Below, piece by piece: positions 9,446 through 64,000 of a stretch of DNA of 64,000 nt; position 1 is the first letter of the stretch; every line of letters begins with the position of its first letter. The translations under genes were made by a program, and so were the position numbers. Source of the DNA: a virus; the IMG/VR virus record IMGVR_UViG_3300042444_000045, positions 32,001 through 96,000 of that record; one strand, written 5' to 3'. The notes under the pieces are model-generated. The model was not told where the DNA came from and made no database searches. It saw only the letters and a list, made by a program, of their open reading frames with translations.

Positions 9446-12400
9446 ATCTCTTCTATAATCCAACCACCTTTTTTGTACTCTTTGATCTCAGCATCTGATA
9501 GTTCCATTATAATGCCACCATCAGAATAACCTTTCTTACCAAAATTAAAATTGCCAGTCTTTAATCTTTGAAGTTCATTGTATTGTCTTTCTGTTGCTAT
9601 ACCATTTTGTCTTTTTACACTAGCAATTAAATCTTTATAAAACTGTTTATTTGAATTAGATAAACGTCTACTATCATAAGTATTTAATAACTGAGTAAAG
9701 TAATCTGGATTTTTAATTTCATATTTAGACATATCCATACTACCTAAACTTGATTTAAAAGTCTTAGGAGATCCTGGTAATTCTTTAGATACCTCTTTAG
9801 GAATTTCATATCCAAACTTATCTTCTAATCTTTGCTTAACAGGTTTATCTAAATTATTCCAATCAAATTGACTTTTTGGATTATCTACATAATTAAGGTC
9901 TACAAGTTTATATGAATCAGTTGCCGGATCATACATCATATTATTTTGACCAAAATAATCTATACCAACTTTATTCTCATCTAAAAGTTCAACCATGTAT
10001 TGCAGTTCACGTTTAGCTTTATCTGAAGGTACACCAAAACCAAGAGGTTTATTTATTGGATTTTCTGCACTTAATGGATTACCTTTCCATGGCATAAATT
10101 GTACAGCTTCTGAATTTGACCTTATTACAGTATTACCTTTTACTTTAGGTATTTTTAATGTAAAAGCTTTTGTAGGAAATGCAACATTTTCCATAAGTGG
10201 CATTCCTTCTAAATCTTTACCAGTTTGAACTAAGTTAGCTAAGTCTTCTGAGCTTCCAGGAAAAGTTCCTATTTTAACTACCTCATCTGGATTTAAAGTA
10301 TTAACAAATATTCTACCTTGTCCTCCACCTAACTTTGTACCTTGTTCAGTTAATACCTGTTTTATAGGGAGTTTAGTTCTTCTAAGATTTCTTGCTTCTA
10401 TAGCTTTTTCTATTTCCAATCTTTTTAGTTGTTCTTCTTGTTGAAGAGGTATTCTAGTATTTCTATTTTCAAAACCAGGATACTTATCTAATAATGCATT
10501 TTCTCTTTTATATGAGCTTTTAATTTTAGCATCATCAACAAATTTATTTAATTTACCTACAGGGTCTTTCCAACTAGTTCTACCCATTGCAGAACTATAT
10601 AAACCAGGTGTTTCTAATATCTGTTCAGGTGTTTTAAACCATGCTTGTGGATTTGTTTTTGCAAGATCAACTCCTGCACTTCCAGCTTTATATGCACCCT
10701 TTGCTAAATTAATTCCAAGTTCTGGTATAGCCTCAAGTCCAGCATATGTCAATGGGTTAAGTGCAGTTACATCAGTATCTGTAACATTAGCCATTTTTTC
10801 TCCGCTATACCAACTAGGCATTTCTTTATAACTAGATCCAGTTGATAAGCCAGTATTTTTTAAATAGTTTGCAGGAATTGTTCCAGGTATTTCTAAAGCT
10901 GCAAATGATTCTAAACCTCCTATAGGAATAGAAAATGGCAGGTCAATATCTGTAAATGGAATCTTAGTCATTTTAGCATTTAAAATTTCTTGAGATTCTT
11001 TTTGAGTAAGTCCAGGCATATTACCTTTGTTCATTGCATCTCTTAGTTCAGGACTAAATTTTGATGCAAGCGTAGCTAATCCAGCAAGTGTTCTATCCCA
11101 ATAAGTAGGTTGCAATTTAGAACCATATTTAGATTCAGCAACAATCCCTCTCTGAGTATCATTAAGCTTATCTACATACTGAGTCCTTCTATTTGGATTC
11201 CATCCTTCTTGTCTACTTACTTTTTTTACTACAGCAGTATTTTTGTTATAGTCATATTCATTTTTAAAATTATCTACAAGATAATCTGGCCAGTTATAAC
11301 TAGAGATAGCATTTTTATTACCGTATCCTGTTTTGGTACCCCACTTATCTATAATAAGATTTTTATTATTTTTTAAGTACTGTTTTTTCTTTTTATTAAT
11401 AAATTCTTCTTCAGGGTGTCTTTTTTTATAATCTCTTGCAGCTTTACCCCAATTAGTAAGTTTACCTTGAACAACAACTTCTTGTTCATCTAGTATGTAA
11501 CCTGCAGTTTCATTTGGATCATATGTTCCCGGTTGAAACTGTGTTTTCTTACGCTTAGGTTCTCCACCTTCTTGTTTATAATCTATAAAGTTATTAGATA
11601 TTATATCTTGTAACTTTTTTCTGTACTCTCCTTCATTAAACAATTGATCAGCAGCTAATCCTCTTGCTCCCCATTTATAAGCAGCCTCTGCATATTGTTG
11701 AGCATTAGCATATTTTAAACCTTCTTCTAAATTATCCGGATCTAGTTTTCTATAGTTATTGCTTAAGAATTTTTTTCTATAAACATTTAAATCTTCAAGA
11801 GGAACATTTTTAATAGACCTACCTGTAACTTTATCAAATGGTGCTACACCATAATTATCTGTTCCAGCAACTCTTGATGACCAGGTGTAATTAGAATTAT
11901 CAGGCTTTAACTCAACTGCAAATAAACCTTTATAATTTTCATCAGGTTTTTTTCCCATTCCAAAAAATGGTGTATCCACTGTTAATCCTGATTTCATTCT
12001 CATTGGTGCAGGAGCTTGTGCCCCACCTTTGTTAATTAAATCTTGTAATCCAGCTTTATTGCCAATTTTTCTATATTTTAAATTTTTATTAGGAATACTT
12101 GTTAATTCATTTTTAGTAAAAGGAGTTAATGGTCTAGTTAAAAAGTTTCTATCAAAACCAGATTTTAAAATTTCATCTGATGAATTTGGAGATCCTGGTA
12201 ATTCTCTTGGAACTTCTGGATATCCTTTTAACCAATGTGGTTTGTTGCTTATATTTTCTTGTAATCTAAATTCATCTAGATACTTTAATGGTATTGATAA
12301 TTTATCAGGATCTGTCAAATCTTCTCCAAAATATCTAGGGCTATCAATTATAGCCTGAGGTTGAGTATCTGTTCTTTTTATAAAAAATCTAGAATCATTA

Positions 12401-17300: not shown

Positions 17301-19919
17301 TTCTAGAGTAGCTCCGGTTCCAAGACCAAATACATTAGTAATAATATTTCCACCACTAAAATAGTTTTTTAATCTTGTAAAAAATGGAGCAACTTGACCC
17401 GGTAGTGGCAAGGATGCTCCAGTAGGATTACCTACATCTAAGTTCTGAATTGAAGCTTGTGCAATTTGACCAGGAGCCTCATAAAAAGGATCTGCAGGAT
17501 TTGTTATACTAACTCCAGGTCCAGTACTTATTATATTTAAAACAGGTTGTGTAGTAAAACTAGCACCCGGTTGTCTCATTACTTTTTTACCTGTAAGTGA
17601 AACAAGTGCTTCTGCAAAACCTATTAGTAATGCTAGACCCATAGCAGCATCACTTATCAACTTAAACTTAGGATGCTCATCCGGATACTTAAATGATTGA
17701 AATGAATAGCCACTAAGTGCACCATATAGTTTTAGTTCAGTCCCTTCTAAGAAAGGAGTTCTAAACATTGTATCTGGAGAATGAAAAGTATTTATTTCAA
17801 TAGGTACAGTTTGACTATAGCCAGTATCTAGTTTGATATATGGATCATTAAACTGATAGTTTGCTTGAGATGAGTTCCCAGTATTCATTGGAGACTGAAT
17901 ACAGTTGAATGGATAGTTAGGATATAATCCAGTTCTATTTCTAGCAACATCTCCTTTGATCTTATAGGTTCTCATGTTATTGAGCATACCCTTTGCAATA
18001 ATTGATCTGTTACCTTCTCTTGAACCTCTTAAGATTTCATACCCTACAATACCTGGAATATCATTTCCATCATTATCTTTAGGCAATGCTATGTTCTCAA
18101 ATACTACACCCATCAATCTAATATTTAGATTGTTAGAGTCTCCTGGTACAGAAGCTGTACTTGGTCTATAGTGTAGAGTATTAGCATTTAAATGATTATC
18201 TGGAAACTTATGATGTCTAATATTAAGACCACATAGATCATTAATGTAAATAGTATTTCCTTGTGGATCAGTATAACTAGCATGTCCATCTGAACCAGTC
18301 CAGCAGTGATCAGTAGAATTCCATATCTCGGGTTGTCTATCTGGATATATCTCAGATGATTCCCAGTAACCCATTTCTCCAGAAGCAATTACAGTACCAC
18401 CATCATTTGTAGTTGTACCAAGAATAGATGCAACACCATTAGTATTAGCAGTATTATACATCTCAAATAGTTGATCACTATTTGTTAAAGTATTTACATC
18501 ATTGATACTATCTGTTCTTTCATTACCTGATATTGTAGTATTTGTTCCTGTAAGAATATAACTATAATCTTGAGGAGGTCTTCCTGGAATGTGATAAGAT
18601 GCCGATTTATCCCCGGTATTATAAACCCAACGAATAAAGAAAGCATATACCTCATCTCTTAAGTAACTTCCTTTATTACCACCTTTAGTATAATAGTCTG
18701 CAGGATATTCTACAGATACCCACTTAGCTCTAATTATGTTTGCTAATGGTTGGTAATTAAAATCAAATCTTGTTCTTGGACCAACTCTAAGTAAGTAACT
18801 ATTTACATCTGTAATCTGATCAGATGTTTCATAAATTGGATTAGTAACTGGAAGAAATTCTAGTGGGACAGTTATTAGGTCATCTTTTATTTGATCTAAC
18901 TCAATAACATTAGTCTTTGTAGAATATGTACCAATTTGTTTTGCAACAGTACCCTGGTTAATATTCTGTACAACTACTAAAACAAACTCATCAAAGTTTT
19001 CTTGATCTGCTTCTACATTAATTGTAATAGCTCCTTGTAGATCATCAGGAAAATATATTGGTTGAGTATTACTTGGAGAGTAATAGTCAGTTACTCTTTG
19101 ACCTTTAATAAGATAAGCTATAGTTGCAAAGTATGTTCCATTCCTGAGTGTTCCACCGGACTCACCCCTTTGAACAGAAAGACATGGTGTTTGTACAAGT
19201 CTTGCAAGTCTGATGCGATCACAATCTAGTTCATTAGTATCATCACAGGTTGTGCAGTTCACATTAGTAGAACAATCTTGTACCCATGCTACACCAGGCC
19301 ATAGTGTTAAATCACCTGTAGAGTTTACATACTGGTTTACTGCTGTATTATAAACAGCTGGAGTAGGGTTAGTAATAGTATTAAGCTGCCACTGATAGTC
19401 ATTAGATGGCCAAGTTTGTGGATCTCCTACATTTAAAAATCTATCTGGATTTAAACCATCAGCCCAATATACCTGCCATGAGCAATCTTCTTTTTCTCTA
19501 GATGACCCCGATATAAGAAATCTTTTATCAAAACCTAAACATTCATCTTGAACAATAGGTCTGTAAATACATCTCTCTTCTTCTAATAGACCAATCTCTG
19601 ACATAACAGGCTTGCCGTTTAGAGCATGACCTGCAGAATAGATAATCCACTTATCTGAGTAGAGATGAATTGCTCCTATTATATAAACATCTGTTACTCC
19701 ATTTGCACCAGTTGTAGGCATAGTAGCTCCAGCTGTAGCACATAATATATTAGATGCTTCATTTGATAGAGTACCTAGATTACCTTCTGATGTATTATTA
19801 GTTGCATTGCGGGCATGTATCCACATGCCTTCTGATACAAATGAAGGATCTGAATCTTTATTAAGACCTTTTACAAATGTGTGTGTAACACTCTGAGATG
19901 TATCTTGAAGTTTTGCCAT
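14304..19919 (-). CDS. Tail stabilization/muzzle protein (crAss-like; P22 gp10-like position)
   Basis: 1871 aa; N-terminal TFVKGLNKDSDP..WIHARN; YWADGLNPDRFLN; C-terminal WTISYD..WISFHDWHP. Follows two ring-protein genes, as in crAss-like tail modules. Confidence 0.75.
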   Translation of the reverse strand: MAKLQDTSQSVTHTFVKGLNKDSDPSFVSEGMWIHARNATNNTSEGNLGTLSNEASNILCATAGATMPTTGANGVTDVYIIGAIHLYSDKWIIYSAGHALNGKPVMSEIGLLEEERCIYRPIVQDECLGFDKRFLISGSSREKEDCSWQVYWADGLNPDRFLNVGDPQTWPSNDYQWQLNTITNPTPAVYNTAVNQYVNSTGDLTLWPGVAWVQDCSTNVNCTTCDDTNELDCDRIRLARLVQTPCLSVQRGESGGTLRNGTYFATIAYLIKGQRVTDYYSPSNTQPIYFPDDLQGAITINVEADQENFDEFVLVVVQNINQGTVAKQIGTYSTKTNVIELDQIKDDLITVPLEFLPVTNPIYETSDQITDVNSYLLRVGPRTRFDFNYQPLANIIRAKWVSVEYPADYYTKGGNKGSYLRDEVYAFFIRWVYNTGDKSASYHIPGRPPQDYSYILTGTNTTISGNERTDSINDVNTLTNSDQLFEMYNTANTNGVASILGTTTNDGGTVIASGEMGYWESSEIYPDRQPEIWNSTDHCWTGSDGHASYTDPQGNTIYINDLCGLNIRHHKFPDNHLNANTLHYRPSTASVPGDSNNLNIRLMGVVFENIALPKDNDGNDIPGIVGYEILRGSREGNRSIIAKGMLNNMRTYKIKGDVARNRTGLYPNYPFNCIQSPMNTGNSSQANYQFNDPYIKLDTGYSQTVPIEINTFHSPDTMFRTPFLEGTELKLYGALSGYSFQSFKYPDEHPKFKLISDAAMGLALLIGFAEALVSLTGKKVMRQPGASFTTQPVLNIISTGPGVSITNPADPFYEAPGQIAQASIQNLDVGNPTGASLPLPGQVAPFFTRLKNYFSGGNIITNVFGLGTGATLEEIFEGFNYKTGFKVGGTFTAPDIDVELSAATYLESAGNVSFFSAVSNVLGALNKFFYYFSEGADATLGVIYAFIPFDQYALQMISHGLYDSFLPPSFIQRASQPYVTRLKIDDAFYIRGNIQEVPYYQSQWPAVVNRRYSINNLKRSDSVVLRTMSGPYFQPAYPNGVDLGPKFILNSANGYYDKSLVTMSYFENNASSQGNAWGNISGPSFDDRSISTPFSLPIASHYGAIKVRKRNQYGQLESVKQIAITPCEQKLDDSYYVNHIWPEQYTCSTGIQYTINKITLTPIFFGGDTFVNRYTEKNSMFFFYDWLYGQPDGFEFNYILRQMIPEPKFWVNSIKYDISDFSNILTQYFGGGNPPGTGWKPTQFYSMDFDGFNYRNNTAGNYPGIFRPKDCYFYLAVSSVRDFFVESEVLVDFRIQGITESEKYYDPYGYTDLISMFNMDPQIITRGNEYRYDYSLSITKAFSQYFSAGNLQSRYYNPNIAKLCYTYFPDRIIYSLPQQQEAIKDSWFVFLVNNYKEFQSQISGVKSINKNGIVITFKNNSPLMFQGVDTLQTDLGTKITIGDGGLFSQPGQSVINADQSFEYGSSQNRLSVISTPAGIYYISQNQAKIFSLGGNLKEISQIGLKWWFNNFLPYKLTNDFPDYPYQDNPVSGIGCQSIYDNENSILYFSKRDYQLLEKWKSPSFTGTIIYVPLITSGPQKGQGDYFQIKNANGTVQPGIYQLGNPLLFEDASWTISYDPKNEFWISFHDWHPDLNMGTKDVFLTTKKNGIWKHNEGCTSFCNFYGDQYPFEIEMPIITGQTVTTVKSIEYILECYRRRPQNCIDQFHVLDYNFDKAVVYNSEQVSGYLNLNIFPKNNVTLSETYPKVNQSNLSSFDILFSKEENKYRFNQFWDITKDRSEFPVGSDYPPTGPVIPDTTVLQGNYADRNIWFTESNGYKRTLNPTNLDYNKSELQRKKFRHYLNYLTLIREDSSDTNMILKIVNSKNQISLR

Positions 19920-20998: not shown

Positions 20999-21660
20999 TA
21001 TCTAAGAGAGTTTTGGCTATCATCTATGTTATCTGAAAAAGCCTGTAATGATATGGTTAGTTCTTTAACAGTATACTGTTCAATTTCAGAGAACAGATAT
21101 TCTGGAAAGGGTAGGGGTTGATTTTGTCTTATTAAACAATCATCTGTTGTACATGTGTCTGCCTGACCTTCAAAGATTGCTTCTATTCTAACAGCATCCC
21201 AATCTACATTTGGAAAATATACATAACCGTTTAAGTACCAGAAGTAAATACTTCTATTATACTTAAAGGTTGTAGTTTTAGTCATAGAGACCCATGTACC
21301 AGGATCTGTACGAAACAACTCTATTGTACCATCTATTGAAGATACTGTACGTATAATAGGACCAAATACACCACTTAGAATAGTTGGTAGTTTTTCTTTT
21401 GATCTCTTGAAGTAACAACCTGAGTATACACCAATACAACCAGCTTCTACCTTATCTACATCAATAAGTTCAACATAGGGTAGTACTTGAAAGATAGAAC
21501 TAATCTTCATTAGTCTAAACTGATTGTCTTCTCTCTTGAGCAATGTTTGCCCATACTTAATTAGTAGAAAGTATATGTTCCTATCAGTTAAGAAAGCATC
21601 TTCCTTTACTGCTTTGAGTGTATTTCTAACTCTTGAGATTGCTTCTCCAATTGTGGTCAT
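20998..21660 (-). CDS. Tail ring protein
   Basis: 220 aa; YFWYLNGYVY, VRIEAIFE and LPFPEYL motifs; lies between the IHF-like gene and the tubular protein gene. Confidence 0.55.
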   Translation of the reverse strand: MTTIGEAISRVRNTLKAVKEDAFLTDRNIYFLLIKYGQTLLKREDNQFRLMKISSIFQVLPYVELIDVDKVEAGCIGVYSGCYFKRSKEKLPTILSGVFGPIIRTVSSIDGTIELFRTDPGTWVSMTKTTTFKYNRSIYFWYLNGYVYFPNVDWDAVRIEAIFEGQADTCTTDDCLIRQNQPLPFPEYLFSEIEQYTVKELTISLQAFSDNIDDSQNSLR

Positions 21661-22238
21661 AGATCAAATTCATTATAGTCTTTTAAACCATCTTGTTGTT
21701 GCTTTAAAAGAACATTTTTATAATACTGTTTTCTAGTTTCTAGTCTTAGTTTTTTTGTAGGGTCAACTACAATATAAGTATTCCAGTTCTCAGGATAGGC
21801 TTTAGCAACAGATCTCTTGAAGTCTCTATTAGCAACAAACTTCCATAACTCTCTATTCTTCATCTTGTGTTTTATTGCAAAACTGGTAAAGAATATTTTA
21901 GCTAGTTTACCATCTGTTTCCCAATTCTTGTTTGTAACTTTTACACCATACTTTTTGGATTTAGCATAATCAATATTTTCTTTCTTACTATTTTCACACG
22001 TACCAATAAAGATCCAACCTACAGAGTTTGGTAATTGCATACCATCTCTTGTATCTATTACTTTTGTCCAAACACTTTTATTAAAAGATCTAATAATCTT
22101 TTTTAGTGTGTCATTATCCACATCTTTGTATCTGGGATACTTTTTTCTAAAACTATCAAAGAACTCTTTGTTCAACATAGTATGGACTTTAGGTCTATAT
22201 CTTGGACCTGTTAAATCCGGGGTTTTAAATTCCTTCAA
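21657..22238 (-). CDS. IHF/HU-like basic DNA-binding protein (crAss tail-module type)
   Basis: Basic 193 aa protein with a TTG start; IIRSFNK..VID...MQLPNSVGWIFI resembles the HU/IHF core; conserved position before the ring genes. Confidence 0.45.
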   Translation of the reverse strand: MKEFKTPDLTGPRYRPKVHTMLNKEFFDSFRKKYPRYKDVDNDTLKKIIRSFNKSVWTKVIDTRDGMQLPNSVGWIFIGTCENSKKENIDYAKSKKYGVKVTNKNWETDGKLAKIFFTSFAIKHKMKNRELWKFVANRDFKRSVAKAYPENWNTYIVVDPTKKLRLETRKQYYKNVLLKQQQDGLKDYNEFDL

Positions 22239-22249
22239 ACTATATAGAT

Positions 22250-22284
22250 TAATATACTAAAAATTATGCACTTTAGCAAATATA
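22250..22284 (-). promoter_or_regulatory. Tandem promoter elements TATATTTG (22277-22284) and GTATATTA (22250-22257)
   Basis: TATATTTG matches the Bacteroidetes -7 consensus TAnnTTTG; GTATATTA is the variant recurring in this window. Both sit just after a terminator and before a gene start. Confidence 0.6.
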
Positions 22285-22286
22285 CT

Positions 22287-22313
22287 AAAAAACAAAACCC
22301 CGCAAGTGCGGGG
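22287..22313 (-). terminator. Rho-independent terminator
   Basis: CCCCGC-ACTT-GCGGGG hairpin followed by TTTTGTTTTTT on the minus strand. Confidence 0.85.
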
Positions 22314-22367
22314 CTTTGCCTTGTTGTCACAGAAACCAACAACTGTAACGTCTTGTAAATTTTTTAA
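22287..22367 (-). ncRNA. Candidate 3'UTR-derived antisense sRNA (seed-loop hairpin plus terminator)
   Basis: Minus-strand RNA GUUACAG-UUGUUGGUUU-CUGUGAC forms a 7-bp stem with one U-G pair. Its loop is complementary to AAACCAACA(A), found at the start regions of five genes. Confidence 0.45.
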
Positions 22368-23231
22368 TTAACCAACTCTTCGGATTGCCCAATCAATATT
22401 ATCACCTGATATACCAGTATAATTTATTCCAGTCATATTCTGATGTCTTAAAACAAGTTGTTCACCTGCAGTTAAAGCTTTACCTTGAATACCACCTGTT
22501 AAATAAAGCCTTGTATAATACAAACCTTTTGTTATTGTAAAAGTATCTGCACAGTAAACTGTAGTTCCTGTACCTGGATTTGTTACTGCAATGCTATAGG
22601 TTCCTCCAGTAGTGGCTGTATTACCCCAACCAAATCCTGTTTGATCAGGACATGTTAAATATACATTGTAGTTAATATCATATTTACCAGTTTCGGGACA
22701 AGTCCAAATTCCAGTGCTAGAGTTGTACTGTGTTGTTGTAGTACCATTTACTATTTGATATTCAACGTCACCTGTAGGAAACAAAATTATTACACCACTA
22801 GAAATGTTACTGTTTGCAAGACTTGCTGTAACAGTATTTAAATTTATTGTAGGTTCAAATGCTACTCTAAATGCTGTGTCAAATAAACCTTGAGCAGCTT
22901 GTAAATTTGAAATGTTAGTATTAATGGTTGAGATGCTACCATTAATAGATGTAATACTTGCGTTAATAGTTGTTAGACTACCATTAATAGTTTGTATACT
23001 ACTGCAGAAATAAGAAATAATATCATCTAGTGCATCAGCAATAACAGTATTACTTGCAACAACTGTAGTACTACCACAAACAATATTTGCACCTGTATAC
23101 ACTGTACATTGAGCATCAGTAACCGTATAACATGGTTCTGGATCAGGACATGCTGCTGGTGTAGGACACGGTGCAGGACTAGTTAAAAAACTATCCTCAC
23201 AACCACAATTTGAACATCTATTTATTGACAT
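22368..23231 (-). CDS. Short tail fibre/spike (Cys-rich N-terminal attachment domain, coiled coil, C1q-like C-terminal domain)
   Basis: N-terminal CSNCGC..CPTPAACP..CTVYTGANI is shared with the collagen fibre; heptad stretch; YNSSTGIWTCPETGKYDINYNV resembles C1q/TNF. Confidence 0.65.
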   Translation of the reverse strand: MSINRCSNCGCEDSFLTSPAPCPTPAACPDPEPCYTVTDAQCTVYTGANIVCGSTTVVASNTVIADALDDIISYFCSSIQTINGSLTTINASITSINGSISTINTNISNLQAAQGLFDTAFRVAFEPTINLNTVTASLANSNISSGVIILFPTGDVEYQIVNGTTTTQYNSSTGIWTCPETGKYDINYNVYLTCPDQTGFGWGNTATTGGTYSIAVTNPGTGTTVYCADTFTITKGLYYTRLYLTGGIQGKALTAGEQLVLRHQNMTGINYTGISGDNIDWAIRRVG

Positions 23232-23242
23232 AGCTTATATTA

Positions 23243-24907
23243 TTAAGGGCAAGTTGTTGAAAAACCTGTTTCAGTATTACATGGATCTACATAAGCTACT
23301 AAACCATCAATTACAAAATAAAACCCACCTATCTCATTTTCATCTCCTGCATCACAACTAAATGGCCATGTAAGATTAAATGTATCTGATTTTAAATCAA
23401 AGTTAGCATTGCTTGGAGCATTATGAATATCTGTTCCAGTACCAATATAGTTTGGAAGATATTCTCCTGCTCTTACATTACTTGTAACTAATCTTAATGG
23501 TGAATTACCTTGTACTCCAGCACCTCTTGTAGTTGAGATCTCAATGTCATGAACTAATTGAACTGTTAATCCTTTTGTTGCAGTAATGGAAACTCTAATA
23601 GCAGAGGTTAAACAAGTACCATAAGTTGGATCAACATCAATTGGTCTAAGTGCTACATCCCAAGCTTTAAAATAAGTATTATCTAAATTTCCAGCAGTTA
23701 CTGACGGTGGAATAACAGAACCACCATTATTAAATGAAATTGCACCATTAGCATTAATACTACAACCACCTACACCACTCCATGTTGTGCAACCTGATAT
23801 TGCATTGTATGCAGAAGTTGAACTTAACACAACTACTGAACCTGGAGAAGATGGATTTTCTAATGGAACAAATACTGTTCCTCTCAAGTGAATTTGATTA
23901 CCAATTCTTCTACATTGTGGTTTATCTACTCCTGAGTAATATGTAAAACCCAGAAGATCTACCCAACCAGTATCCGTAATATTTGCTGTAATAACATTAC
24001 CTGTATTATCTAAGTTTACAGTTGCTGTGTCAGCTACTGTAATTGAAAATGTACTTACATAGTTATATACATCACAGATTGCAATCCATAGGTTATTAAT
24101 TGCCTCTGCTGCTGTATTTAAATTAGATGACGTTACCCAGGTACCTGCATATGCAACAGAAAATGCTGTGCCAAATACAAGTGATAAATCTGCATCACTA
24201 ATACACTGTGATAATACTGCTGCCGTTATTGCAGAGGCTTCTCCAGTTGCTGCTTTCAGTGCACAATAACCATAAGTGTTATCATTTATTAAAGCATTAA
24301 GAACTGTATCAATTGGGTAATTACCAGGAGATACTACTGTCCCACTTAATGTACAATCTACTGGAATATTTGGTAATGTAAATGTAGGAGCTGGTGCAGA
24401 CTCTAATGCTGTAACTCTAACATCTAAACTTGTTATGCTAGCTTCAATTGTTGCAATTTCTGTAACTAATGCACATACTCTAGTTCCAATAGCTTGAGCA
24501 TATTCTGAAACTGTCATTACAGTAACCCCATTTATTACAAAACAAGATGCTACTGTAACTAATGCATCAGCTCCTGTAGATTTAGTAGTATTTGTAATTG
24601 GACTTGTAGCTGGATCAGATACAATAGTTACTTCATTTTGCAATGCACAAATCTGTTCAATTAAAAACTGAATAAGTGCTTGAAAATCATTTGGACCACA
24701 AGCAGTTAAGTTGAAACATGAAAGATCATAATTAGTTACATTTAGTGTATCTAATACTGTACATAATTCTGTTGCAAGTTTAAATATAACATCTGAAATT
24801 GTATCCCCTGCACACAGTTTGATACAAGGAATATCTGGTCCTTGCCAAATTACACAATTGCTTGAGATTGGACTACAGGGTGAGTTATCATAATTTAGTG
24901 GCTTCAT
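23243..24907 (-). CDS. Tail fibre protein
   Basis: SSNCVIWQGPDIPC N-terminal motif; coiled coil; C-terminal DTGWVDL..CRRIGNQIHLRG typical of fibre tips. Confidence 0.65.
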   Translation of the reverse strand: MKPLNYDNSPCSPISSNCVIWQGPDIPCIKLCAGDTISDVIFKLATELCTVLDTLNVTNYDLSCFNLTACGPNDFQALIQFLIEQICALQNEVTIVSDPATSPITNTTKSTGADALVTVASCFVINGVTVMTVSEYAQAIGTRVCALVTEIATIEASITSLDVRVTALESAPAPTFTLPNIPVDCTLSGTVVSPGNYPIDTVLNALINDNTYGYCALKAATGEASAITAAVLSQCISDADLSLVFGTAFSVAYAGTWVTSSNLNTAAEAINNLWIAICDVYNYVSTFSITVADTATVNLDNTGNVITANITDTGWVDLLGFTYYSGVDKPQCRRIGNQIHLRGTVFVPLENPSSPGSVVVLSSTSAYNAISGCTTWSGVGGCSINANGAISFNNGGSVIPPSVTAGNLDNTYFKAWDVALRPIDVDPTYGTCLTSAIRVSITATKGLTVQLVHDIEISTTRGAGVQGNSPLRLVTSNVRAGEYLPNYIGTGTDIHNAPSNANFDLKSDTFNLTWPFSCDAGDENEIGGFYFVIDGLVAYVDPCNTETGFSTTCP

Positions 24908-24923
24908 ATTTCTTCTATTACTA

Positions 24924-24931
24924 TAATATAC
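24924..24931 (-). promoter_or_regulatory. Recurrent GTATATTA promoter-like element
   Basis: TTTTT-GTATATTA-TAG, 16 nt upstream of the ATG at 24907; identical core at five other intergenic sites. Confidence 0.6.
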
Positions 24932-24940
24932 AAAAATTAA

Positions 24941-26875
24941 TTAAGAATGGCAAGTACTACAACTACCACCGCAAGATCCATTACAACCACATCCTGTATT
25001 ACAACCACATCCTGTATTGCATCCACATGATGGAGTTGCACATACATAGTCTGGATTAACTAATGCTTTTAAATCTATTAGTTGTTTTTGAATAAGATAT
25101 TGTTGATCATCTTCTGGACAACAATTACTAATTCCATATCTGAGTTCCAGTACTTGTTTATATAATGCTTCTGCTGCTTTACATGAAATCTCTTCATATT
25201 TCCAAGTAGAACAATATGGTGTATTGTATCCTGGTTTTAAAGATCTTCTTGGATATACAGGAGGAGGACAAGTATGCACATCATCAACTAGTGTACAGTT
25301 TCCAAAATATTCTACATAATCTGTAGGATAGGATGTAAGCCAATGAGCCATACATATTCTATCAGATCTTTGACCAGCAAGTAATGTAATTGTTTGTACA
25401 TCACCTTCACAGTCTAAGTAATCATAATTATGAGATACTGTATCATGGTTCTTGATTCTTGAACATACACACGGAAAACTTGTAAGACAGTCTTCACATG
25501 TTTCAAATGAATCTGCTATGCCTCCAAGAATCCCTGCTCCAACACTTGTCGTTGCAACACTAACTCTCCAGCATGTGGTTGGACACCACTCAAGAACAAT
25601 TATCTCTGTTACATATTCTGAAAGATCAGTAGATGTAATTATACTGGTTTCAATACCATTACAATCTGTAAGCTCATAGTAAGTTGTTTTACAAGCTTCA
25701 CAATCATCAAATGCATCTTGCACAACTACTGTGACATCAGATGGAATTGGATTTGGATATTCTTCTATAATCCAGCACCCAGGACAATCTGTTTCAATAT
25801 TAATTACCTGTCCTACATATGCACTAAGATCAGATGATGAATAAATAATTGTACCTAAATCATCACAGTTAGTTAGTAAATAATTTGGTGCAGGATTACA
25901 TTCTTCACATGTATCAAATGCTTGTAGTACAACTACATCAATAGCACAATCACAGTCTACAACACTATTAACTATCCAACAATTATCATAACCATCTATT
26001 TGTACTACTTGACCTAGAATAGCATATTGACCAAGAGACTGTGCTGTTGTATAAATAGGGTCCAATAAATCATCACAATCAGTTAATTCATAACATGGAG
26101 TTGGACATTCACCATCCACACATTCACCACCATCAGTTACAGTATAGGTAGAAGGTACTTGTGGATATACTAAAGAACATCCTTTCCAATAACCACTAAT
26201 TGTAATAGCTACTACTACACCATTACAGTCAATATAGTATAGCTTACCTGAACCTACAATTTCATAACAAGTACACTCACATGAACATGGTTCATCTCCA
26301 TCTACTGTAACTGTTATTGGATTACTAGGATCTAAGTTAGTTTCAACAGACCAATTAACTACATAGTAGCAATCAAATGGTCCATCTGCATCTACTTGAA
26401 TTGTGGCATAATCATTTACATATGCTGATAAATCTGTATCAGTTACTGTAGGTACAAGTGATTCATCACATGGCCAAACAACATATAATGGAGTTGGGCA
26501 TGTAGGACATGTAATTACTTCATCTCCACAAGGAGTTTCATATGTGGTAGTACTATCCCATGTATAAACACCGCTTCCTGGAAAATTAGTAGGAACAACA
26601 TTAAGGCTAAGATAGTTAGCTCCAGTAATTGGACTACTTGGATCTGACGTAGTACCTCTAAAAATTCTATAACATTGATTACTTAATCCTACATAACTAT
26701 CTGTTATAGGATCATAACCAACACCAGAAATTCCATTGTAAATATTTATACCTGGTGTAGGTGGATTAGTCGTACCATTAACACTAAAATATAAAATGTT
26801 TCCACCACAACATGGTTCAAATCCAATCCATGAATTTGATGCGGGTGGTGTAAATGTTGTTTTTGGTACTGACAT
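24941..26875 (-). CDS. Cys-rich repeat virion protein (probably tail hub/fibre associated)
   Basis: 644 aa; 3-4 repeats of about 68 aa (YELTDC..DLS.YV..CW.V..F..CE.C); C-terminal CGCNTG repeats. Confidence 0.55.
   Translation of the reverse strand: MSVPKTTFTPPASNSWIGFEPCCGGNILYFSVNGTTNPPTPGINIYNGISGVGYDPITDSYVGLSNQCYRIFRGTTSDPSSPITGANYLSLNVVPTNFPGSGVYTWDSTTTYETPCGDEVITCPTCPTPLYVVWPCDESLVPTVTDTDLSAYVNDYATIQVDADGPFDCYYVVNWSVETNLDPSNPITVTVDGDEPCSCECTCYEIVGSGKLYYIDCNGVVVAITISGYWKGCSLVYPQVPSTYTVTDGGECVDGECPTPCYELTDCDDLLDPIYTTAQSLGQYAILGQVVQIDGYDNCWIVNSVVDCDCAIDVVVLQAFDTCEECNPAPNYLLTNCDDLGTIIYSSSDLSAYVGQVINIETDCPGCWIIEEYPNPIPSDVTVVVQDAFDDCEACKTTYYELTDCNGIETSIITSTDLSEYVTEIIVLEWCPTTCWRVSVATTSVGAGILGGIADSFETCEDCLTSFPCVCSRIKNHDTVSHNYDYLDCEGDVQTITLLAGQRSDRICMAHWLTSYPTDYVEYFGNCTLVDDVHTCPPPVYPRRSLKPGYNTPYCSTWKYEEISCKAAEALYKQVLELRYGISNCCPEDDQQYLIQKQLIDLKALVNPDYVCATPSCGCNTGCGCNTGCGCNGSCGGSCSTCHS
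24980..25015. repeat. 18-bp tandem repeat (ATTACAACCACATCCTGT x2) encoding TGCGCN units
   Basis: Directly visible; followed by a degenerate third copy. Confidence 0.85.
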
Positions 26876-27065: not shown

Positions 27066-27086
27066 AAGTTGTTGGTTTTTAAGTTT

Positions 27087-34756: not shown

Positions 34757-34795
34757 GTTTTGTTGGTTTTATTTTTGTGTTGGTTAAATATAAAG

Positions 34796-34840: not shown

Positions 34841-36457
34841 TTAGAATGATCCACCTGTTACAGGGTTTCTCATAACAATTTTTAAAACTTTAGTTGGGTC
34901 TTTAACCCAGATAGCTGGCATTGTTTGGCTCATCATTACACGGTAACCATTGAACTGACCAGAAGACTGGAAGCCTTGGCTACGTCCCATGTAGTCCATA
35001 GTACCATTTTGATACCACCATTTCAATTGGTTATCCCAAGACAATTTCAACAAGAAGATGTTGTCATTAGTATTGTCAGTGATATCAAAGATAATGAATG
35101 AGTAAGAAGATAATGGGAAACCATCAATGATTGGGTTCTCAATATCATTTGTATGAACATTGTCAAATGCTGGGTTAAGAACAAACTTAACATTTGCCAA
35201 GAATGGGATTACATATGAAGTATATGCAAAACCAAAGTTCAAGTCCATACCTTTACCAGTGATTGCACCGATATCAGCAGCCTGGATAAGAAGACCAGAA
35301 GAGATAGCCTCTTGTTTGATAGCCTCATTAACCATTCTCATACCACCCATACCAGTTTGTACAACTAGGCTACGTTTTGGATCTGGACCTTGGAATTCAA
35401 CTTTACCATTGAAGAAGTTGTAGATCTCAGAACGGAACAAGTCAAGTGTGAAGTTGTTTTTGTTGTATACTCTTTTGAATGAGTTATCCAACTGCTTCCA
35501 AAGACCCACAGACAATCTAACATCATCTGGACCATCTTGACGAACTCTACCACCATGTCCCCACATTAAGTAAGTCTCAATGTCAGTTGCAATTTTGCTC
35601 AAGTGAGCTGCTTCCATGTTTGTTAAGAAAGTACGTGACAAGTTACCGTTGTCAAATGCTTTTTTAACAGAGTCTTTACCCATTACTTTAACCATGTCTT
35701 CCAAAGAAGAAATTGATGGATCCATAGTTTTGTCATATGATCTCCAGATCTCAGTTACAGGAACTGAACCATCTGCATTCATTCCACCTTTGATCATCAA
35801 GTCAGCACGGCTAGAGATAGAGTAGTGAACGTGAGCTTCTGCACCACCTACGTAGTTGTAGAATTCACGGAAACCTGCATTAGTAATGATGTCAGAGAAT
35901 CTCTCACCATACTCACCACGTGCAGAACCTTTACGGAATACTTTAGTACCGTTAGCTAAATACTTGTCATCAAGATATTTATAGTTGTCGTTGTTTACTA
36001 ACTGAACAGTATAGATGTAACCATCACCTAAAGGAAGAATATCTTCTTGTGTAATGTACATCTCAACACCATTGTATTTGTCATAAGTGATGATATCACC
36101 ATGTCCAAATTCTCTTTTGTTAAGTTTGATACGGAATGTAGTACCATCAACACCTTTGAAGTTGTTGTCTGGTTCAATATCCTCAACAATGTAAGGAAGG
36201 TCAATAGAAACCGGAGTTTGCCATCTGTATTCCCCACGTGCGTTATCTACCATGATAACATTTTTGCCACCAAATGAAGACATCTGATAAAGAGGCATTT
36301 CAACTTTTTGAGCCATAGCCCATAGATCCACTGGACCAAGGTCCATTGGCTCTGCATCTTTCAGCATATTCACCAAGTGGTAAGAATCCACATGGGAACT
36401 TGCATTGTAAGCGGTATCCCTGAGGAATATACCATTGTTCATTACTGGAGTTGCCAT
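34841..36457 (-). CDS. Major capsid protein (crAss-like, HK97 fold)
   Basis: 538 aa after portal and scaffold; EYRWQ, LMWG.GG, GLWKQL, VQTGMGGM, FGFAYTSY and NPAFD segments fit crAss-like capsid proteins; followed by a terminator. Confidence 0.85.
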   Translation of the reverse strand: MATPVMNNGIFLRDTAYNASSHVDSYHLVNMLKDAEPMDLGPVDLWAMAQKVEMPLYQMSSFGGKNVIMVDNARGEYRWQTPVSIDLPYIVEDIEPDNNFKGVDGTTFRIKLNKREFGHGDIITYDKYNGVEMYITQEDILPLGDGYIYTVQLVNNDNYKYLDDKYLANGTKVFRKGSARGEYGERFSDIITNAGFREFYNYVGGAEAHVHYSISSRADLMIKGGMNADGSVPVTEIWRSYDKTMDPSISSLEDMVKVMGKDSVKKAFDNGNLSRTFLTNMEAAHLSKIATDIETYLMWGHGGRVRQDGPDDVRLSVGLWKQLDNSFKRVYNKNNFTLDLFRSEIYNFFNGKVEFQGPDPKRSLVVQTGMGGMRMVNEAIKQEAISSGLLIQAADIGAITGKGMDLNFGFAYTSYVIPFLANVKFVLNPAFDNVHTNDIENPIIDGFPLSSYSFIIFDITDNTNDNIFLLKLSWDNQLKWWYQNGTMDYMGRSQGFQSSGQFNGYRVMMSQTMPAIWVKDPTKVLKIVMRNPVTGGSF

Positions 36458-36485: not shown

Positions 36486-37748
36486 TTAAAATCTCTTGAA
36501 CAAATTATTTGGTCTTGAGAGTGTTCTTTGCGGTTTATTACCCGCTCTTCTTGGTTCATCAGACTCTTGTATTGAAGAAGAAGTAATTTTTCTTGCCTCT
36601 TCTGTTTTAAGTTGTCTAACTGTTTTCTCTACAGCAGCCTTAGAACCTTGTTCTTTAATCTTGCCTTTGTATCCTTCTGGATCAGAAAGTAACCAAAGAG
36701 CTTCTGAAATAAGATCATGTCTTGGTTCTACAAACTGATACTTTTCTAAAAGATGTCCTAATAAGTTAGTTTGTCTTCCAGAGATAGATGGATAACTTGG
36801 TTGTACTAATCCTGAGTATAACATACTCTGGGTTTTCTTATCAAGTTTAATTCCATTTAAGTCACCTGCAACAAGTGTGTTATACACATTCTCTGTGTAT
36901 ACTCTTGCTTGTTGAGCTTGTTGTTCTTTTTTGTGCTCTTGTTCTGCAAGTTTTCTAGCTACTACTTCTTCTTGCATTCTGTCTAACTGTGGTTTAAACT
37001 GTTGAGCTTTTGCTTCTAGTTTACCCATATCGGCCCAGTCATTGATTTCAGCTTCAATCTCTTCTGGAGAGCCAAATCTTTTAGCATATAAGTATTGTCT
37101 TGCAATCTCTGCTTGATCATACTCATTACTTGGATCTAGATCAATTACTTCTTCTACCTCTGCAAGAGTTCTAAAGAGAGCTTTTAAATCTGTACCACCA
37201 TCAGCTACATATTTAGCTGCTACTTGAAGTTCTTCAGGAAGAGATTGAAAGAACTCTCTTGGAGTATCTTGTCTGATCTTATTCTCTCTTTCTTGGAAGT
37301 TAGCTTCAAATAATTCTCTGAAGTCTTTAGTAGTATATTCCTCTAATGGTTTGTCATCATCAAAGGGAATAAGTGTACCTTCTTCAATCATCTTTAGGGC
37401 TAGCTCAGAAAGACCGGACTTATCTACTTTAGGTCTTCCTTTGTTACCAGTTTCTTCTTCTTGACTAATCATGTCATCAAGTTGAGCTATTGCTTCATCA
37501 ACTTGCTTTGCTGATACTGGTGCTGCTGGATCAGGATTATCATCTTTCTTGTCAAGGAACGTGGTGTCTAAATCCTGTGTTTTTGAGAACACAGACTTTG
37601 GACTGTCATTTGAACTATCAGTATCTGAGGGTAACATTACATTCTCTGCCCCAGGCATTCCAAATAGTTCATCAATGTTTACATCTACCTGACCTACCGT
37701 TGTAGAGTCTTGTACCTGATCTTCAGGCTTTTTGTTGGTTTCTTCCAT
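36486..37748 (-). CDS. Putative scaffold protein
   Basis: Acidic, disordered N-terminus and helical core; located between portal and major capsid genes. Confidence 0.65.
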   Translation of the reverse strand: MEETNKKPEDQVQDSTTVGQVDVNIDELFGMPGAENVMLPSDTDSSNDSPKSVFSKTQDLDTTFLDKKDDNPDPAAPVSAKQVDEAIAQLDDMISQEEETGNKGRPKVDKSGLSELALKMIEEGTLIPFDDDKPLEEYTTKDFRELFEANFQERENKIRQDTPREFFQSLPEELQVAAKYVADGGTDLKALFRTLAEVEEVIDLDPSNEYDQAEIARQYLYAKRFGSPEEIEAEINDWADMGKLEAKAQQFKPQLDRMQEEVVARKLAEQEHKKEQQAQQARVYTENVYNTLVAGDLNGIKLDKKTQSMLYSGLVQPSYPSISGRQTNLLGHLLEKYQFVEPRHDLISEALWLLSDPEGYKGKIKEQGSKAAVEKTVRQLKTEEARKITSSSIQESDEPRRAGNKPQRTLSRPNNLFKRF

Positions 37749-37771
37749 TACTGTTGGTTTTGGTTATAATT

Positions 37772-45183: not shown

Positions 45184-45495
45184 CTATCCTTTTCTGAGCT
45201 TTCTTTTACTCTGCTCAGGCATAGAAGGTTCTTTATCAATATCATTATCAGAACCTCTTTCTTCTAACTCATCTTCTGGTTCTAATTCTTGTTCTTGTTG
45301 AGATTGAGCCATCATAGCATACTGCATTTGAATGTGCGTTCTCTTATATCTTACCTCATCAATCTTCATAAGAACTTCTTCATACTTGAGTTGTGCTTCT
45401 AAGTAGGGCAAGGAATCAGTATAGAATTGAAGCATTTGTTCTTTTTGAGCAGCCAACTCTTCAGCTGTAAACTCTCTTTCTTGTTGGTTTTCCAT
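45184..45495 (-). CDS. Hypothetical protein, first gene of the packaging operon
   Basis: 103 aa with a coiled coil; preceded by TATATTTG and a terminator. Confidence 0.7.
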   Translation of the reverse strand: MENQQEREFTAEELAAQKEQMLQFYTDSLPYLEAQLKYEEVLMKIDEVRYKRTHIQMQYAMMAQSQQEQELEPEDELEERGSDNDIDKEPSMPEQSKRKLRKG

Positions 45496-48900: not shown

Positions 48901-48905
48901 ACATA

Positions 48906-48913
48906 TAATATAC
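48906..48913 (-). promoter_or_regulatory. GTATATTA promoter-like element of the lysis operon
   Basis: TTTTTT-GTATATTA-TATGT-ATG. Confidence 0.55.
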
Positions 48914-48920
48914 AAAAAAT

Positions 48921-51140: not shown

Positions 51141-51158
51141 CTGCTGTTGGTTTTACAA

Positions 51159-60850: not shown

Positions 60851-60877
60851 GGTTATAAATATTAAATGTATACAGTA

Positions 60878-60885
60878 TAATATAC
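60878..60885 (-). promoter_or_regulatory. GTATATTA promoter-like element
   Basis: T8-GTATATTA-TAC between a terminator and a gene start. Confidence 0.6.
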
Positions 60886-60905
60886 AAAAAAAATCTTTAA
60901 TAAAC

Positions 60906-62608: not shown

Positions 62609-62640
62609 TGTTATTAATTTATAAGACTAATATACTAAAA

Positions 62641-63656: not shown

Positions 63657-63912
63657 ATGTAAATTATTATAAGACTACCCAGGGGTAAACGAATGAAGAA
63701 TAAACCCCCCGGGCAATCTGTTTCATCTGTAGCATGGTAAAGGTAGAAAGTCTGAAGGAAATATACAACTACGGGGAGGGGTTTTTTACCATACAAGAGT
63801 ATGTGGTGGGGCATTGCTACAACACCCCCCGGCCCCTGGCGGAGAGGTGGCCACCCCCCTTTGTTTCAGAGAACATCTTACTACACAGGTTACTAACACT
63901 AAATTTTTTACC

Positions 63913-64000
63913 ATGGAAAAAGTTTTTCACCCAGACTGCAGCTGCGGTCAACCTGTACTGTATCATATTGATCAGATACCTGTGTTTGAGAACAATGTTC
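63913..64000 (+). CDS. Partial plus-strand ORF (start of an oppositely transcribed module)
   Basis: ATG at 63913 after an AT-rich leader; MEKVFHPDCSCGQPVLYHIDQIPVFENNV is open to the window end. Confidence 0.45.
   Translation, partial: MEKVFHPDCSCGQPVLYHIDQIPVFENNV

What the first reader, a model, noticed from the sequence alone, without database searches (positions are those of the whole stretch)
22287..22367. Candidate trans-acting phage sRNA whose hairpin loop is antisense to the start regions of five late genes
Seen: the minus-strand 3' region after the 287-aa fibre gene reads GUUACAG-UUGUUGGUUU-CUGUGAC (22349-22326), then a strong terminator. The stem is fully paired only on the minus strand, because one pair is a U-G wobble. 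The complement of the loop, AAACCAACA(A), sits at six translation-start sites: 27067-27078 (12-nt match, leader of the 60-aa Cys protein), 34760-34769 (leader of the post-capsid gene, with a partial copy at 34778-34785), 37752-37760 (scaffold leader), 37732-37743 (12-nt match in scaffold codons 2-6), 45481-45490 (codons 2-5 of the first packaging-operon gene) and 51145-51153 (leader of the glyco-enzyme). By base composition I estimate under one chance copy of the 9-mer per strand in 64 kb; my scan was by eye, not exhaustive. Inference: a 3'UTR-derived sRNA with a loop-presented seed tunes translation of head, scaffold and packaging genes. I know of no such regulon described in crAss-like phages.
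Basis: partly seen in the sequence, partly recalled or inferred. Interest (0 to 1): 0.88.

Follow-up and report, generated by a model that had tools for sequence, protein, structure and literature searches.

The report
Conserved anti-leader RNA hairpin in phage
At the end of a tail-fibre operon, this uncultured phage and many relatives keep an RNA hairpin whose loop mirrors a short tag at the start of several phage genes, so it probably controls their translation by base pairing, though no experiment has shown it.

Summary
AAACCAACA occurs 8 times in the window against 1.14 expected. Seven of the 10 copies in the genome lie in mRNA sense at -13..-4 or in codons 2-5 of gene starts. Its complement forms the 10-nt loop of a 7-bp hairpin, followed by a strong terminator, after the 287-aa gene.

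In 249 of 251 related IMG/VR loci a hairpin shows the same GUUGGU core in its loop; the other 2 are cut by contig ends. The stems have been replaced by more than a dozen unrelated but still pairing sequences. The leader tag is kept at orthologous starts in relatives.

My best reading (0.55) is a 3'-end RNA of the fibre operon that pairs with the ribosome-binding region of first cistrons. Four things are not shown:
- a discrete sRNA molecule;
- any effect on translation;
- loop and target changing together (loop variants are not compensated);
- a promoter of its own.

This scan noted the same kind of element before on another genome (e1-5997994). Four full-text searches found no paper describing it.

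The parts
22326..22349 (-). Seed hairpin: 5' arm GUUACAG (22349-22343), loop UUGUUGGUUU (22342-22333), 3' arm CUGUGAC (22332-22326)
   Evidence: Sequence. MFE fold and loop unpaired probability 0.87-0.98. In 66 distinct relatives 97.8% of helix cells pair, with changes that pass through G.U. 249 of 251 related loci have a hairpin with GUUGGU in its loop.
22289..22322 (-). Intrinsic terminator: 15-bp G+C-rich stem, ACUU loop, U-run
   Evidence: Fold. The stem covaries freely in relatives, e.g. pair 68:75 is GC 28 / AU 26 / GU 12.
22287..22367 (-). Whole 3'-untranslated element, from the stop codon of the 287-aa gene (22368-22370) to the terminator U-run
   Evidence: No Rfam family reaches its threshold.
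27070..27078 (-). Leader motif AAACCAACA, 4 nt before the ATG of the 60-aa Cys-rich gene; the match to loop plus stem runs 12 nt (27067-27078)
   Evidence: The orthologous leader is kept in G002, G004, G005, G006-G009, G012-G015 and others.
34761..34769 (-). Leader motif 4 nt before the ATG of the 338-aa gene that follows the capsid gene
   Evidence: Kept in relatives, often as 2-3 tandem copies.
34778..34785 (-). Second, 8-nt copy (AACCAACA) in the same leader, just after a TATATTT box
37752..37760 (-). Leader motif 3 nt before the ATG of the 420-aa gene upstream of the capsid gene (scaffold by position only)
   Evidence: Kept in relatives.
37733..37741 (-). Motif copy in codons 3-6 of the same 420-aa gene (12-nt match at 37732-37743)
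45482..45490 (-). Motif copy in codons 2-5 of the 103-aa gene, in a different reading frame from the 37733 copy
   Evidence: The same placement is seen in G001, G005 and G007.
51145..51153 (-). Leader motif 4 nt before the ATG of the 739-aa gene, 5 nt after a TATATTTG box
   Evidence: Kept in G003, G004 and G005.
22251..22284 (-). Two promoter-like boxes after the terminator: TATATTTG (22284-22277) and TTTTTAGTATATT (22263-22251). They precede the conserved 193-aa gene (21657-22238, TTG start).
   Evidence: TAnnTTTG lies within 130 nt downstream of the hairpin in 87 of 89 distinct contexts. They mark the element's boundary and are not part of its proposed action.

Best explanation
The stretch is the 3' end of the tail-fibre operon transcript. 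It holds a stable hairpin that displays UUGUUGGUUU in its loop, followed by an intrinsic terminator.

The loop pairs with AAACCAA(CA). The phage places this tag at -13..-4 from the start codon, or in codons 2-5, of the first gene of several transcription units: the 739-aa, 103-aa, 420-aa, 338-aa and 60-aa late genes and one early gene. In a host that does not use Shine-Dalgarno pairing, this is the A-rich stretch the ribosome needs. Pairing there should therefore block or tune initiation on all these messages together.

Shown:
- the hairpin, on this strand;
- its deep conservation with replaced stems;
- the complementarity;
- the position and conservation of the tag.

Inferred:
- that the two actually pair;
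- that the effect is repression;
- that the RNA acts in trans, either as a processed 3' fragment or as the tail of the full mRNA.
For: 1. Structure on the sense strand. Helix 1 pairs in 97.8% of cells across 66 distinct sequences. Changes pass through G.U (UG 30 / UA 23 / CG 9; GU 34 / AU 30 / GC 2). Slid controls pair in 41-57% of cells. From the same table, 76 of 460 helix cells are wobbles, which would be mismatches on the other strand.
2. Across five protein-anchored searches, 249 of 251 loci have a hairpin with GUUGGU in the loop followed by a T-run; the 2 misses are cut by contig ends. There are 52 arm/loop/arm combinations and at least 135 distinct 400-nt sequences. Arms include GUUACAG/CUGUGAC, UCCGUU/AACGGA, AUCACG/CGUGAU, GUUCUGUG/AUACAGAAC and GUAGUGG/CUACUAC. 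The neighbouring protein is down to about 38% identical in these relatives.
3. The tag was found independently as a joint-top 9-mer of start regions.
4. In 21 related records, 152 of 782 AAACCAA copies lie within -25..+20 of a same-strand start, against 1-3% expected from the share of sequence. AACCAACA starts at -13..-10 or +4..+8.
5. Start regions of this phage have no Shine-Dalgarno signal (7 of 123) and show A peaks at -13..-11 and -3. That is the pattern reported to promote initiation in Flavobacterium johnsoniae (PMC6847099, passages read).
6. The two in-gene copies are in different reading frames, so the constraint is on nucleotides.
7. The invariant part of the loop (GUUGGUU) is the complement of the invariant part of the tag (AACCAAC / AAACCAA).
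8. My own estimate, from the composition, for a 10-11-nt loop holding that 7-mer by chance is about 3 in 10,000.
Against: - No RNA data: no 5' end, no abundance, no small species (searches gave nothing usable).
- No compensatory change. Loops UUAGUUGGUUU (G012, G013)..GGUUA (G006)..GGUAUUUU (G007)..GGUGUU (L512) and ..GGU (L529) face unchanged leaders.
- In G020 and G021 most leaders read AAAACCAAA, which matches only the 3' half of the loop. Yet the 5' UUG of the loop is still kept, so something besides these leaders constrains the loop.
- The energy-based enrichment at starts is only about 2.3-fold.
- A 9-12-bp duplex cannot form inside a 10-nt loop without opening the stem.
- The capsid gene, the most expressed late gene in a related model phage, lacks the tag.
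Confidence: 0.55

Rival explanations
1. The hairpin is a binding or processing site for a phage or host RNA-binding protein (3'-end stability, termination, RNase entry). The start-site tag is a separate, good Bacteroidia-type initiation region. Their complementarity has no function.
For: - The loop is more conserved than pairing needs: the 5' UUG is kept where leaders read AAAACCAAA.
- Loop variants are not compensated.
- The AAA of the tag falls on the general A peak at -13..-11 seen in all genes of this phage.
Against: - A chance match of the two invariant 7-mers is about 3 in 10,000 by my estimate.
- The CC..C part of the tag is not explained by A-richness.
- The tag also occurs after the start codon, in two reading frames.
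- Both parts are kept together in every full record read.
Confidence: 0.2
2. The loop's main partner is a host RNA. The phage leaders either share the tag by mimicry or compete for the loop.
For: The loop is invariant across phages whose neighbouring protein is only about 38% identical. That is easier to explain if a slowly evolving outside partner fixes it. The incomplete match in G020/G021 fits this.
Against: - No host is known, so nothing could be tested.
- The tag's strict placement at phage starts is left unexplained.
- A seed with many targets is expected to be frozen anyway.
Confidence: 0.1
3. The motif is a double-stranded DNA site for a phage transcription factor. It is used in one orientation at promoters and in the other orientation upstream of the 193-aa gene's promoter.
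For: The same 9 bp occurs in both orientations near promoter-like boxes.
Against: - The distance to the ATG is fixed, while the distance to the promoter box varies from 0 to about 29 nt.
- The motif sits behind two different promoter types, including the early AACATCTTATTAC box.
- Copies lie inside coding sequence.
- The flanking arms keep pairing only as RNA or single strand of the sense strand, with G.U pairs and fully replaced arms.
Confidence: 0.05
4. The tag pairs with host 16S rRNA as a private ribosome-binding site, and the hairpin loop mimics that rRNA segment.
For: It would explain why both sequences stay frozen.
Against: In 80 16S stretches from genome contigs, almost all Bacteroidota by record title, GTTGGTT was absent from the 16S body. 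The single hit lay at the 3' edge, in sequence unlike the conserved tail. GTTGGT occurs in 42 of 80, but only near position 250. 23S rRNA and the true host were not tested.
Confidence: 0.03

Closest known systems
3'UTR-derived base-pairing sRNAs of bacteria (CpxQ, SroC, DapZ type; recalled, not read here). The same class was annotated in Bacteroides thetaiotaomicron (PMC7366714, passages read).
   Same: The element lies between a stop codon and the parental mRNA's own terminator, has no promoter of its own, and has a short conserved seed complementary to start regions of several mRNAs.
   Different: It is encoded by a lytic-type phage and aimed at the phage's own genes. The seed is in a hairpin loop, not a linear stretch. 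No processed species has been shown. The likely host phylum mostly lacks Hfq (recalled).
GibS sRNA of Bacteroides thetaiotaomicron (PMC7366714, passages read)
   Same: A Bacteroidota setting without Shine-Dalgarno use. A conserved single-stranded seed pairs across the start-codon region of target mRNAs and represses them.
   Different: GibS is a host intergenic gene with its own start site and a 30-50-nt linear 5' seed. Here the seed is a 10-nt loop at an operon's 3' end in a phage.
c4 antisense RNA of phages P1/P7 (as summarised in review PMC12197685, passage read)
   Same: A phage RNA whose complementary sequences probably sit in loops and pair around a ribosome-binding site of a phage mRNA to block translation.
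   Different: c4 acts on one operon (ant) in immunity control of a temperate phage. Here one loop faces five or more start sites spread over 30 kb of a virulent-type genome.
Staphylococcus aureus RNAIII and alphaproteobacterial Cuckoo/CcsR RNAs (recalled, not read here)
   Same: Hairpin loops carry a short motif complementary to the ribosome-binding region of many mRNAs.
   Different: Their loops are C-rich anti-Shine-Dalgarno sequences. Here the target is a private A/C-rich tag in a system without Shine-Dalgarno use, and there is a single hairpin.

Membership tests
Trans-acting base-pairing sRNA (3'UTR-derived type) | A discrete, stable small transcript | not testable with these tools
   The only RNA run found is kept as assembled contigs. 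It shows no ends and nothing usable at the hairpin.
Trans-acting base-pairing sRNA (3'UTR-derived type) | Shares the terminator of the upstream gene and has no promoter of its own | tested here: met
   The hairpin starts 18 nt after the stop codon in the window and 3-15 nt after it in relatives. TAnnTTTG lies within 150 nt upstream in 11 of 89 contexts, against 87 of 89 downstream.
Trans-acting base-pairing sRNA (3'UTR-derived type) | A conserved, accessible seed | tested here: met
   Loop unpaired probability is 0.87-0.98. The GUUGGU core is present in 249 of 251 loci although the stems are replaced.
Trans-acting base-pairing sRNA (3'UTR-derived type) | Complementarity to target mRNAs at or near start sites | tested here: met
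   9-12-nt perfect matches at seven start sites of this genome. Duplex energies are -11.9 to -16.0 kcal/mol.
Trans-acting base-pairing sRNA (3'UTR-derived type) | Seed and targets change together in relatives | tested here: not met
   Loop variants in G006, G007, G012, G013, L512, L529 and L530 face unchanged leaders. At least 7-9 bp of pairing remains in each. This neither proves nor excludes pairing.
Trans-acting base-pairing sRNA (3'UTR-derived type) | Seed mutation changes target expression and a compensatory mutation restores it | not testable with these tools
   Needs an experiment.
Any Rfam family | Score at or above the curated gathering threshold | tested here: not met
   0 matches in the window at gathering thresholds. 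At E up to 10 on 22150-22450, only matches far below threshold that span the hairpin-terminator region, e.g. Leu_leader 29.1 bits against 50.
Intrinsic (Rho-independent) terminator | G+C-rich stem-loop followed by a U-run on the transcribed strand | tested here: met
   A 15-bp stem at 22322-22289 running into UUUUGUUUUUU, covarying in relatives. This covers the second hairpin only, not the seed hairpin.

The most novel reading that the evidence does not exclude
A whole, abundant lineage of environmental phages that probably infect Bacteroidota runs a private translation code. An A/C-rich tag stands in for a ribosome-binding site on the first genes of head, packaging and fibre operons. A single master RNA hairpin, made as the tail of the fibre operon, reads that tag by base pairing, so that tail-fibre expression feeds back on head and packaging gene translation. 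The 193-aa neighbour gene alone has 1830 clusters at 90% identity. The loop has stayed fixed while every stem base was replaced, which would make it one of the most conserved seeds known in any phage.
Probability: 0.4. Interest if true: 0.8.

Novelty: new variant of a known kind. Interest (0 to 1): 0.7.

Why it matters
Post-transcriptional control in phages of Bacteroidota is almost unexplored, and these hosts start translation without Shine-Dalgarno pairing. If one short phage RNA addresses a shared tag on many phage messages, two things follow. It would be a compact way to coordinate head, packaging and fibre synthesis. It would also be a ready-made orthogonal tag-and-antitag pair for controlling translation in Flavobacteria and Bacteroides. 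The element is short, sharply defined and present in well over a hundred distinct environmental genomes, so reporter fusions and compensatory mutants can test the idea directly. Even if pairing is disproved, the hairpin remains a deeply conserved RNA motif with a sequence-specific partner still to be found.

Tried and rejected
- Known RNA families: none.
- Nucleotide search of GenBank phages with 21000-25000: no match. tblastn of the 193-aa protein against the same collection: no match.
- Family scans (PHROGs and Pfam) of the 287-, 193-, 60-, 338-, 420- and 103-aa proteins, and Pfam of the 554- and 644-aa proteins, found nothing. The 739-aa protein has only weak glycosyltransferase and TPR hits.
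- Expression: one RNA run (X1, freshwater metatranscriptome, share 0.14) was laid. It is kept as contigs of related strains, shows no ends, and lists no piece across the hairpin. I draw nothing from it.
Only 14 were true hairpin contexts.
- Pseudoknot or alternative pairing of loop UUGUU(G) with the 3' flank (C)AACAA: considered. The flank is only moderately kept (AACAA, AACGG, AACUG, AAACAAG, AAGCAG) and the loop is predicted to be open. Not pursued.
- 5'-3' pairing within one operon (the 27070 leader with the hairpin): the 12-nt extension is not kept in G002 or G005. Not favoured as the main role.
- Search for loop and target changing together: every variant checked was negative.
- Very distant homologue P0233: no relative in viral contigs.
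- My first two automatic hairpin counts were faulty (regex errors; too strict). replace them. In one search the script picked a wrong place in 5 loci (L161 and L514 groups, L533); the true hairpin of those contigs had been seen.
- Literature: 'crAss-like' + 'sRNA' gave 2 unrelated papers. 'crAss-like' + 'late promoter' gave 8 papers, 6 listed. 'crAss001' + 'RNA-seq' + 'non-coding' gave 5. 'phage-encoded' + 'sRNA' + 'seed' + 'late genes' gave 5. By title and abstract start, none describes this element.
- The phi14:2 preprint (10.1101/2020.03.07.982082, passages read) reports host-polymerase middle/late promoters and two early long non-coding RNAs. In the passages I read there was no 3' hairpin or leader tag. 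Its Supplementary file 1 (126 promoters) could not be opened and may bear on the promoter boxes.

Full report
WHAT IS THERE

The window is part of a 117,768-bp virus record. Its late block lies on the minus strand and its early block on the plus strand.

After the stop codon of the 287-aa gene (22368-23231, minus strand) the transcript reads GUUACAG-UUGUUGGUUU-CUGUGAC (22349-22326). A 15-bp G+C-rich stem and a U-run follow at 22322-22289. The 91-nt stretch folds at -30.7 kcal/mol (z -4.65; 0 of 200 shuffles fold as well), and the loop is predicted to be open (0.87-0.98 unpaired).

No Rfam family matches.

After the terminator come two promoter-like boxes and a conserved 193-aa gene that starts with TTG in this genome.

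THE MOTIF

AAACCAACA occurs 8 times in the window against 1.14 expected and 10 times in the whole record.
- Seven copies are in mRNA sense at starts. Five are leaders, ending 3-4 nt before the ATG of the 739-, 420-, 338- and 60-aa late genes and of a 67-aa early gene outside the window. Two are in-gene copies, in codons 3-6 of the 420-aa gene and codons 2-5 of the 103-aa gene, in different reading frames.
- The other three are the loop itself, one antisense copy inside a large ORF, and one at the record's edge.

A blind k-mer scan of 123 start regions puts the motif joint first among 9-mers.

Five of the six tagged genes follow an intergenic gap of 46 nt or more that holds a promoter-like box. 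The tag therefore marks first cistrons. Its distance to the ATG is fixed, while its distance to the box varies. It also follows the different early box AACATCTTATTAC.

Start regions of this phage lack Shine-Dalgarno signals (7 of 123) and show A peaks at -13..-11 and -3. In Flavobacterium johnsoniae, adenines at -12, -13, -6 and -3 promote initiation, and the upstream A-tract lies near protein bS1 (PMC6847099, passages read). The AAA of the tag falls exactly on that peak.

This points to a Bacteroidota-type host. The reading of TAnnTTTG as a Bacteroidetes promoter element is from memory.

RELATIVES

The 287-aa protein found 8 IMG/VR loci. In 5 of them only the first 76-103 residues match, as expected of a fibre with a swapped tip. 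All 8 keep the hairpin right after the stop codon.

The 193-aa neighbour is a better anchor. It has 1830 clusters at 90% identity and 499 representatives at 50% identity.

Four more searches anchored on it or on distant homologues bring the total to 251 loci.
- 249 of the 251 loci have a hairpin with GUUGGU in the loop followed by a T-run. The other two are cut by contig ends.
- At least 135 distinct 400-nt versions exist.
- In nine loci the hairpin is not directly upstream of the gene. In the three such records read in full (G020-G022) it lies 1.4-1.7 kb upstream, with an extra gene inserted between.

STRUCTURE EVIDENCE

On 66 distinct sequences the seed helix pairs in 97.8% of cells, against 41-57% when the partners are slid. 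Changes pass through G.U. Those wobbles would be mismatches on the opposite strand.

Over the wider set the arms are replaced outright, for example UCCGUU/AACGGA, AUCACG/CGUGAU, GUUCUGUG/AUACAGAAC, GUAGUGG/CUACUAC and AGUCUaGCUU/AAGCaAGACU. The loop stays (U)UUGUUGGUUU(U) throughout.

So selection keeps a sense-strand stem of any sequence and a loop of one sequence.

There is no conserved promoter upstream (11 of 89 contexts, against 87 of 89 downstream). The RNA is therefore the tail of the fibre-operon transcript.

ARE TAG AND LOOP LINKED?

In 21 related records read in full or nearly so, 152 of 782 AAACCAA copies lie within -25..+20 of a same-strand start, against 1-3% expected. Each record has the hairpin. 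G011 lacks the late-leader part of the genome.

The orthologous leaders carry the tag. These are the scaffold-position gene (419-438 aa), the post-capsid gene (334-339 aa) and the Cys-rich peptide (51-70 aa). The tag is often present in 2-3 tandem copies.

The invariant loop core GUUGGUU is the complement of the invariant tag core. I estimate a chance match at about 3 in 10,000.

AGAINST A SIMPLE STORY
- Rare loop variants (UUAGUUGGUUU..GGUUA..GGUAUUUU..GGUGUU..GGU) face unchanged leaders.
- In G020 and G021 most leaders read AAAACCAAA, which matches only UUGGUUUU. Yet the 5' UUG of the loop persists.
- Energy alone enriches starts only about 2.3-fold.
- No RNA evidence exists.

RIVALS TESTED

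A DNA-site reading is contradicted by three results:
- the tag's spacing is fixed relative to the ATG, not the promoter box;
- copies lie inside genes;
- the flanking arms pair only as RNA.

An rRNA-pairing reading found no GTTGGTT inside 80 16S stretches that are almost all Bacteroidota by title. 23S rRNA and the true host remain untested.

A protein-bound hairpin with a coincidental complement, and a host-RNA partner, remain open.

COMPARISON AND NOVELTY

The element works like a 3'UTR-derived, multi-target base-pairing RNA. Its seed is presented in a loop, as in P1 c4 (review PMC12197685, passage read) or RNAIII (recalled). It acts in the Shine-Dalgarno-free setting of GibS (PMC7366714, passages read).

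It fails the covariation test, and its defining functional features could not be tested. I therefore file it as a new variant of a known kind, not as a proven sRNA.

Four full-text searches found no description of it.

Earlier notes of this scan describe the same kind of hairpin and AAACCAA tag on another genome (e1-5997994), and similar anti-leader RNAs in unrelated phages. These are AI notes, not independent evidence.

VERDICT

- Observation: confirmed.
- Interpretation: partly supported.
- The hairpin is a functional conserved RNA: about 0.95.
- It acts by pairing with the tag: about 0.55-0.6.
- It is a discrete trans-acting repressor sRNA: about 0.4.

Noticed in passing
G000 96100-99000 (plus strand, mostly beyond the window's end; first copies near window 63900-64000): Early genes are each preceded by a near-invariant AACATCTT(T/A)TTAC box about 20-35 nt before the ATG, usually after a G+C-rich hairpin and T-run. 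It looks like an early promoter for a phage polymerase. One of these genes (G000 97054) also carries the AAACCAACA tag.
   Followed up: partly
window 24908-24940, 48901-48920, 60851-60900, 62609-62640, 22251-22263 (minus strand): A second box, TTTT(N)GTATATT(A/TG), recurs before late and middle genes both with and without the tag. This shows the tag is not part of the promoter.
   Followed up: partly
window 22368-23231 and loci L004-L008: The 287-aa gene is modular. Relatives share only the first 76-103 residues (66-72% identity) and then diverge completely, as expected of a receptor-binding fibre with an exchangeable tip. The hairpin follows whichever tip is present.
   Followed up: partly
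window 21657-22238 (minus strand): The 193-aa protein downstream of the hairpin belongs to a very large family with no name (1830 clusters at 90% identity; 499 representatives at 50%). It has no Pfam or PHROG match and no hit in GenBank phages. In this genome it starts with TTG; the relatives seen use ATG.
   Followed up: partly
records G020, G021, G022 (loci L564-L583): In one sub-lineage an extra gene of about 1.4-1.7 kb is inserted between the hairpin-terminator and the 193-aa gene. The hairpin stays attached to the upstream operon, not to the downstream gene.
   Followed up: partly
G012 9492-9520, G013 19526-19555, G014 9210-9245 (late-strand coordinates of my re-oriented copies; locus sets L323-L336): The leader of the post-capsid gene carries three tandem AACCAAC copies in these relatives and two in most others. 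Copy number differs by gene and lineage.
   Followed up: no
window 34841-36457 (minus strand): The capsid protein's nearest cultured match is Leptolyngbya phage Lbo-JY46 (28.5% identity over 99% of the protein), ahead of gut crAss-like phages (22-24%). This lineage is only loosely crAss-like.
   Followed up: no
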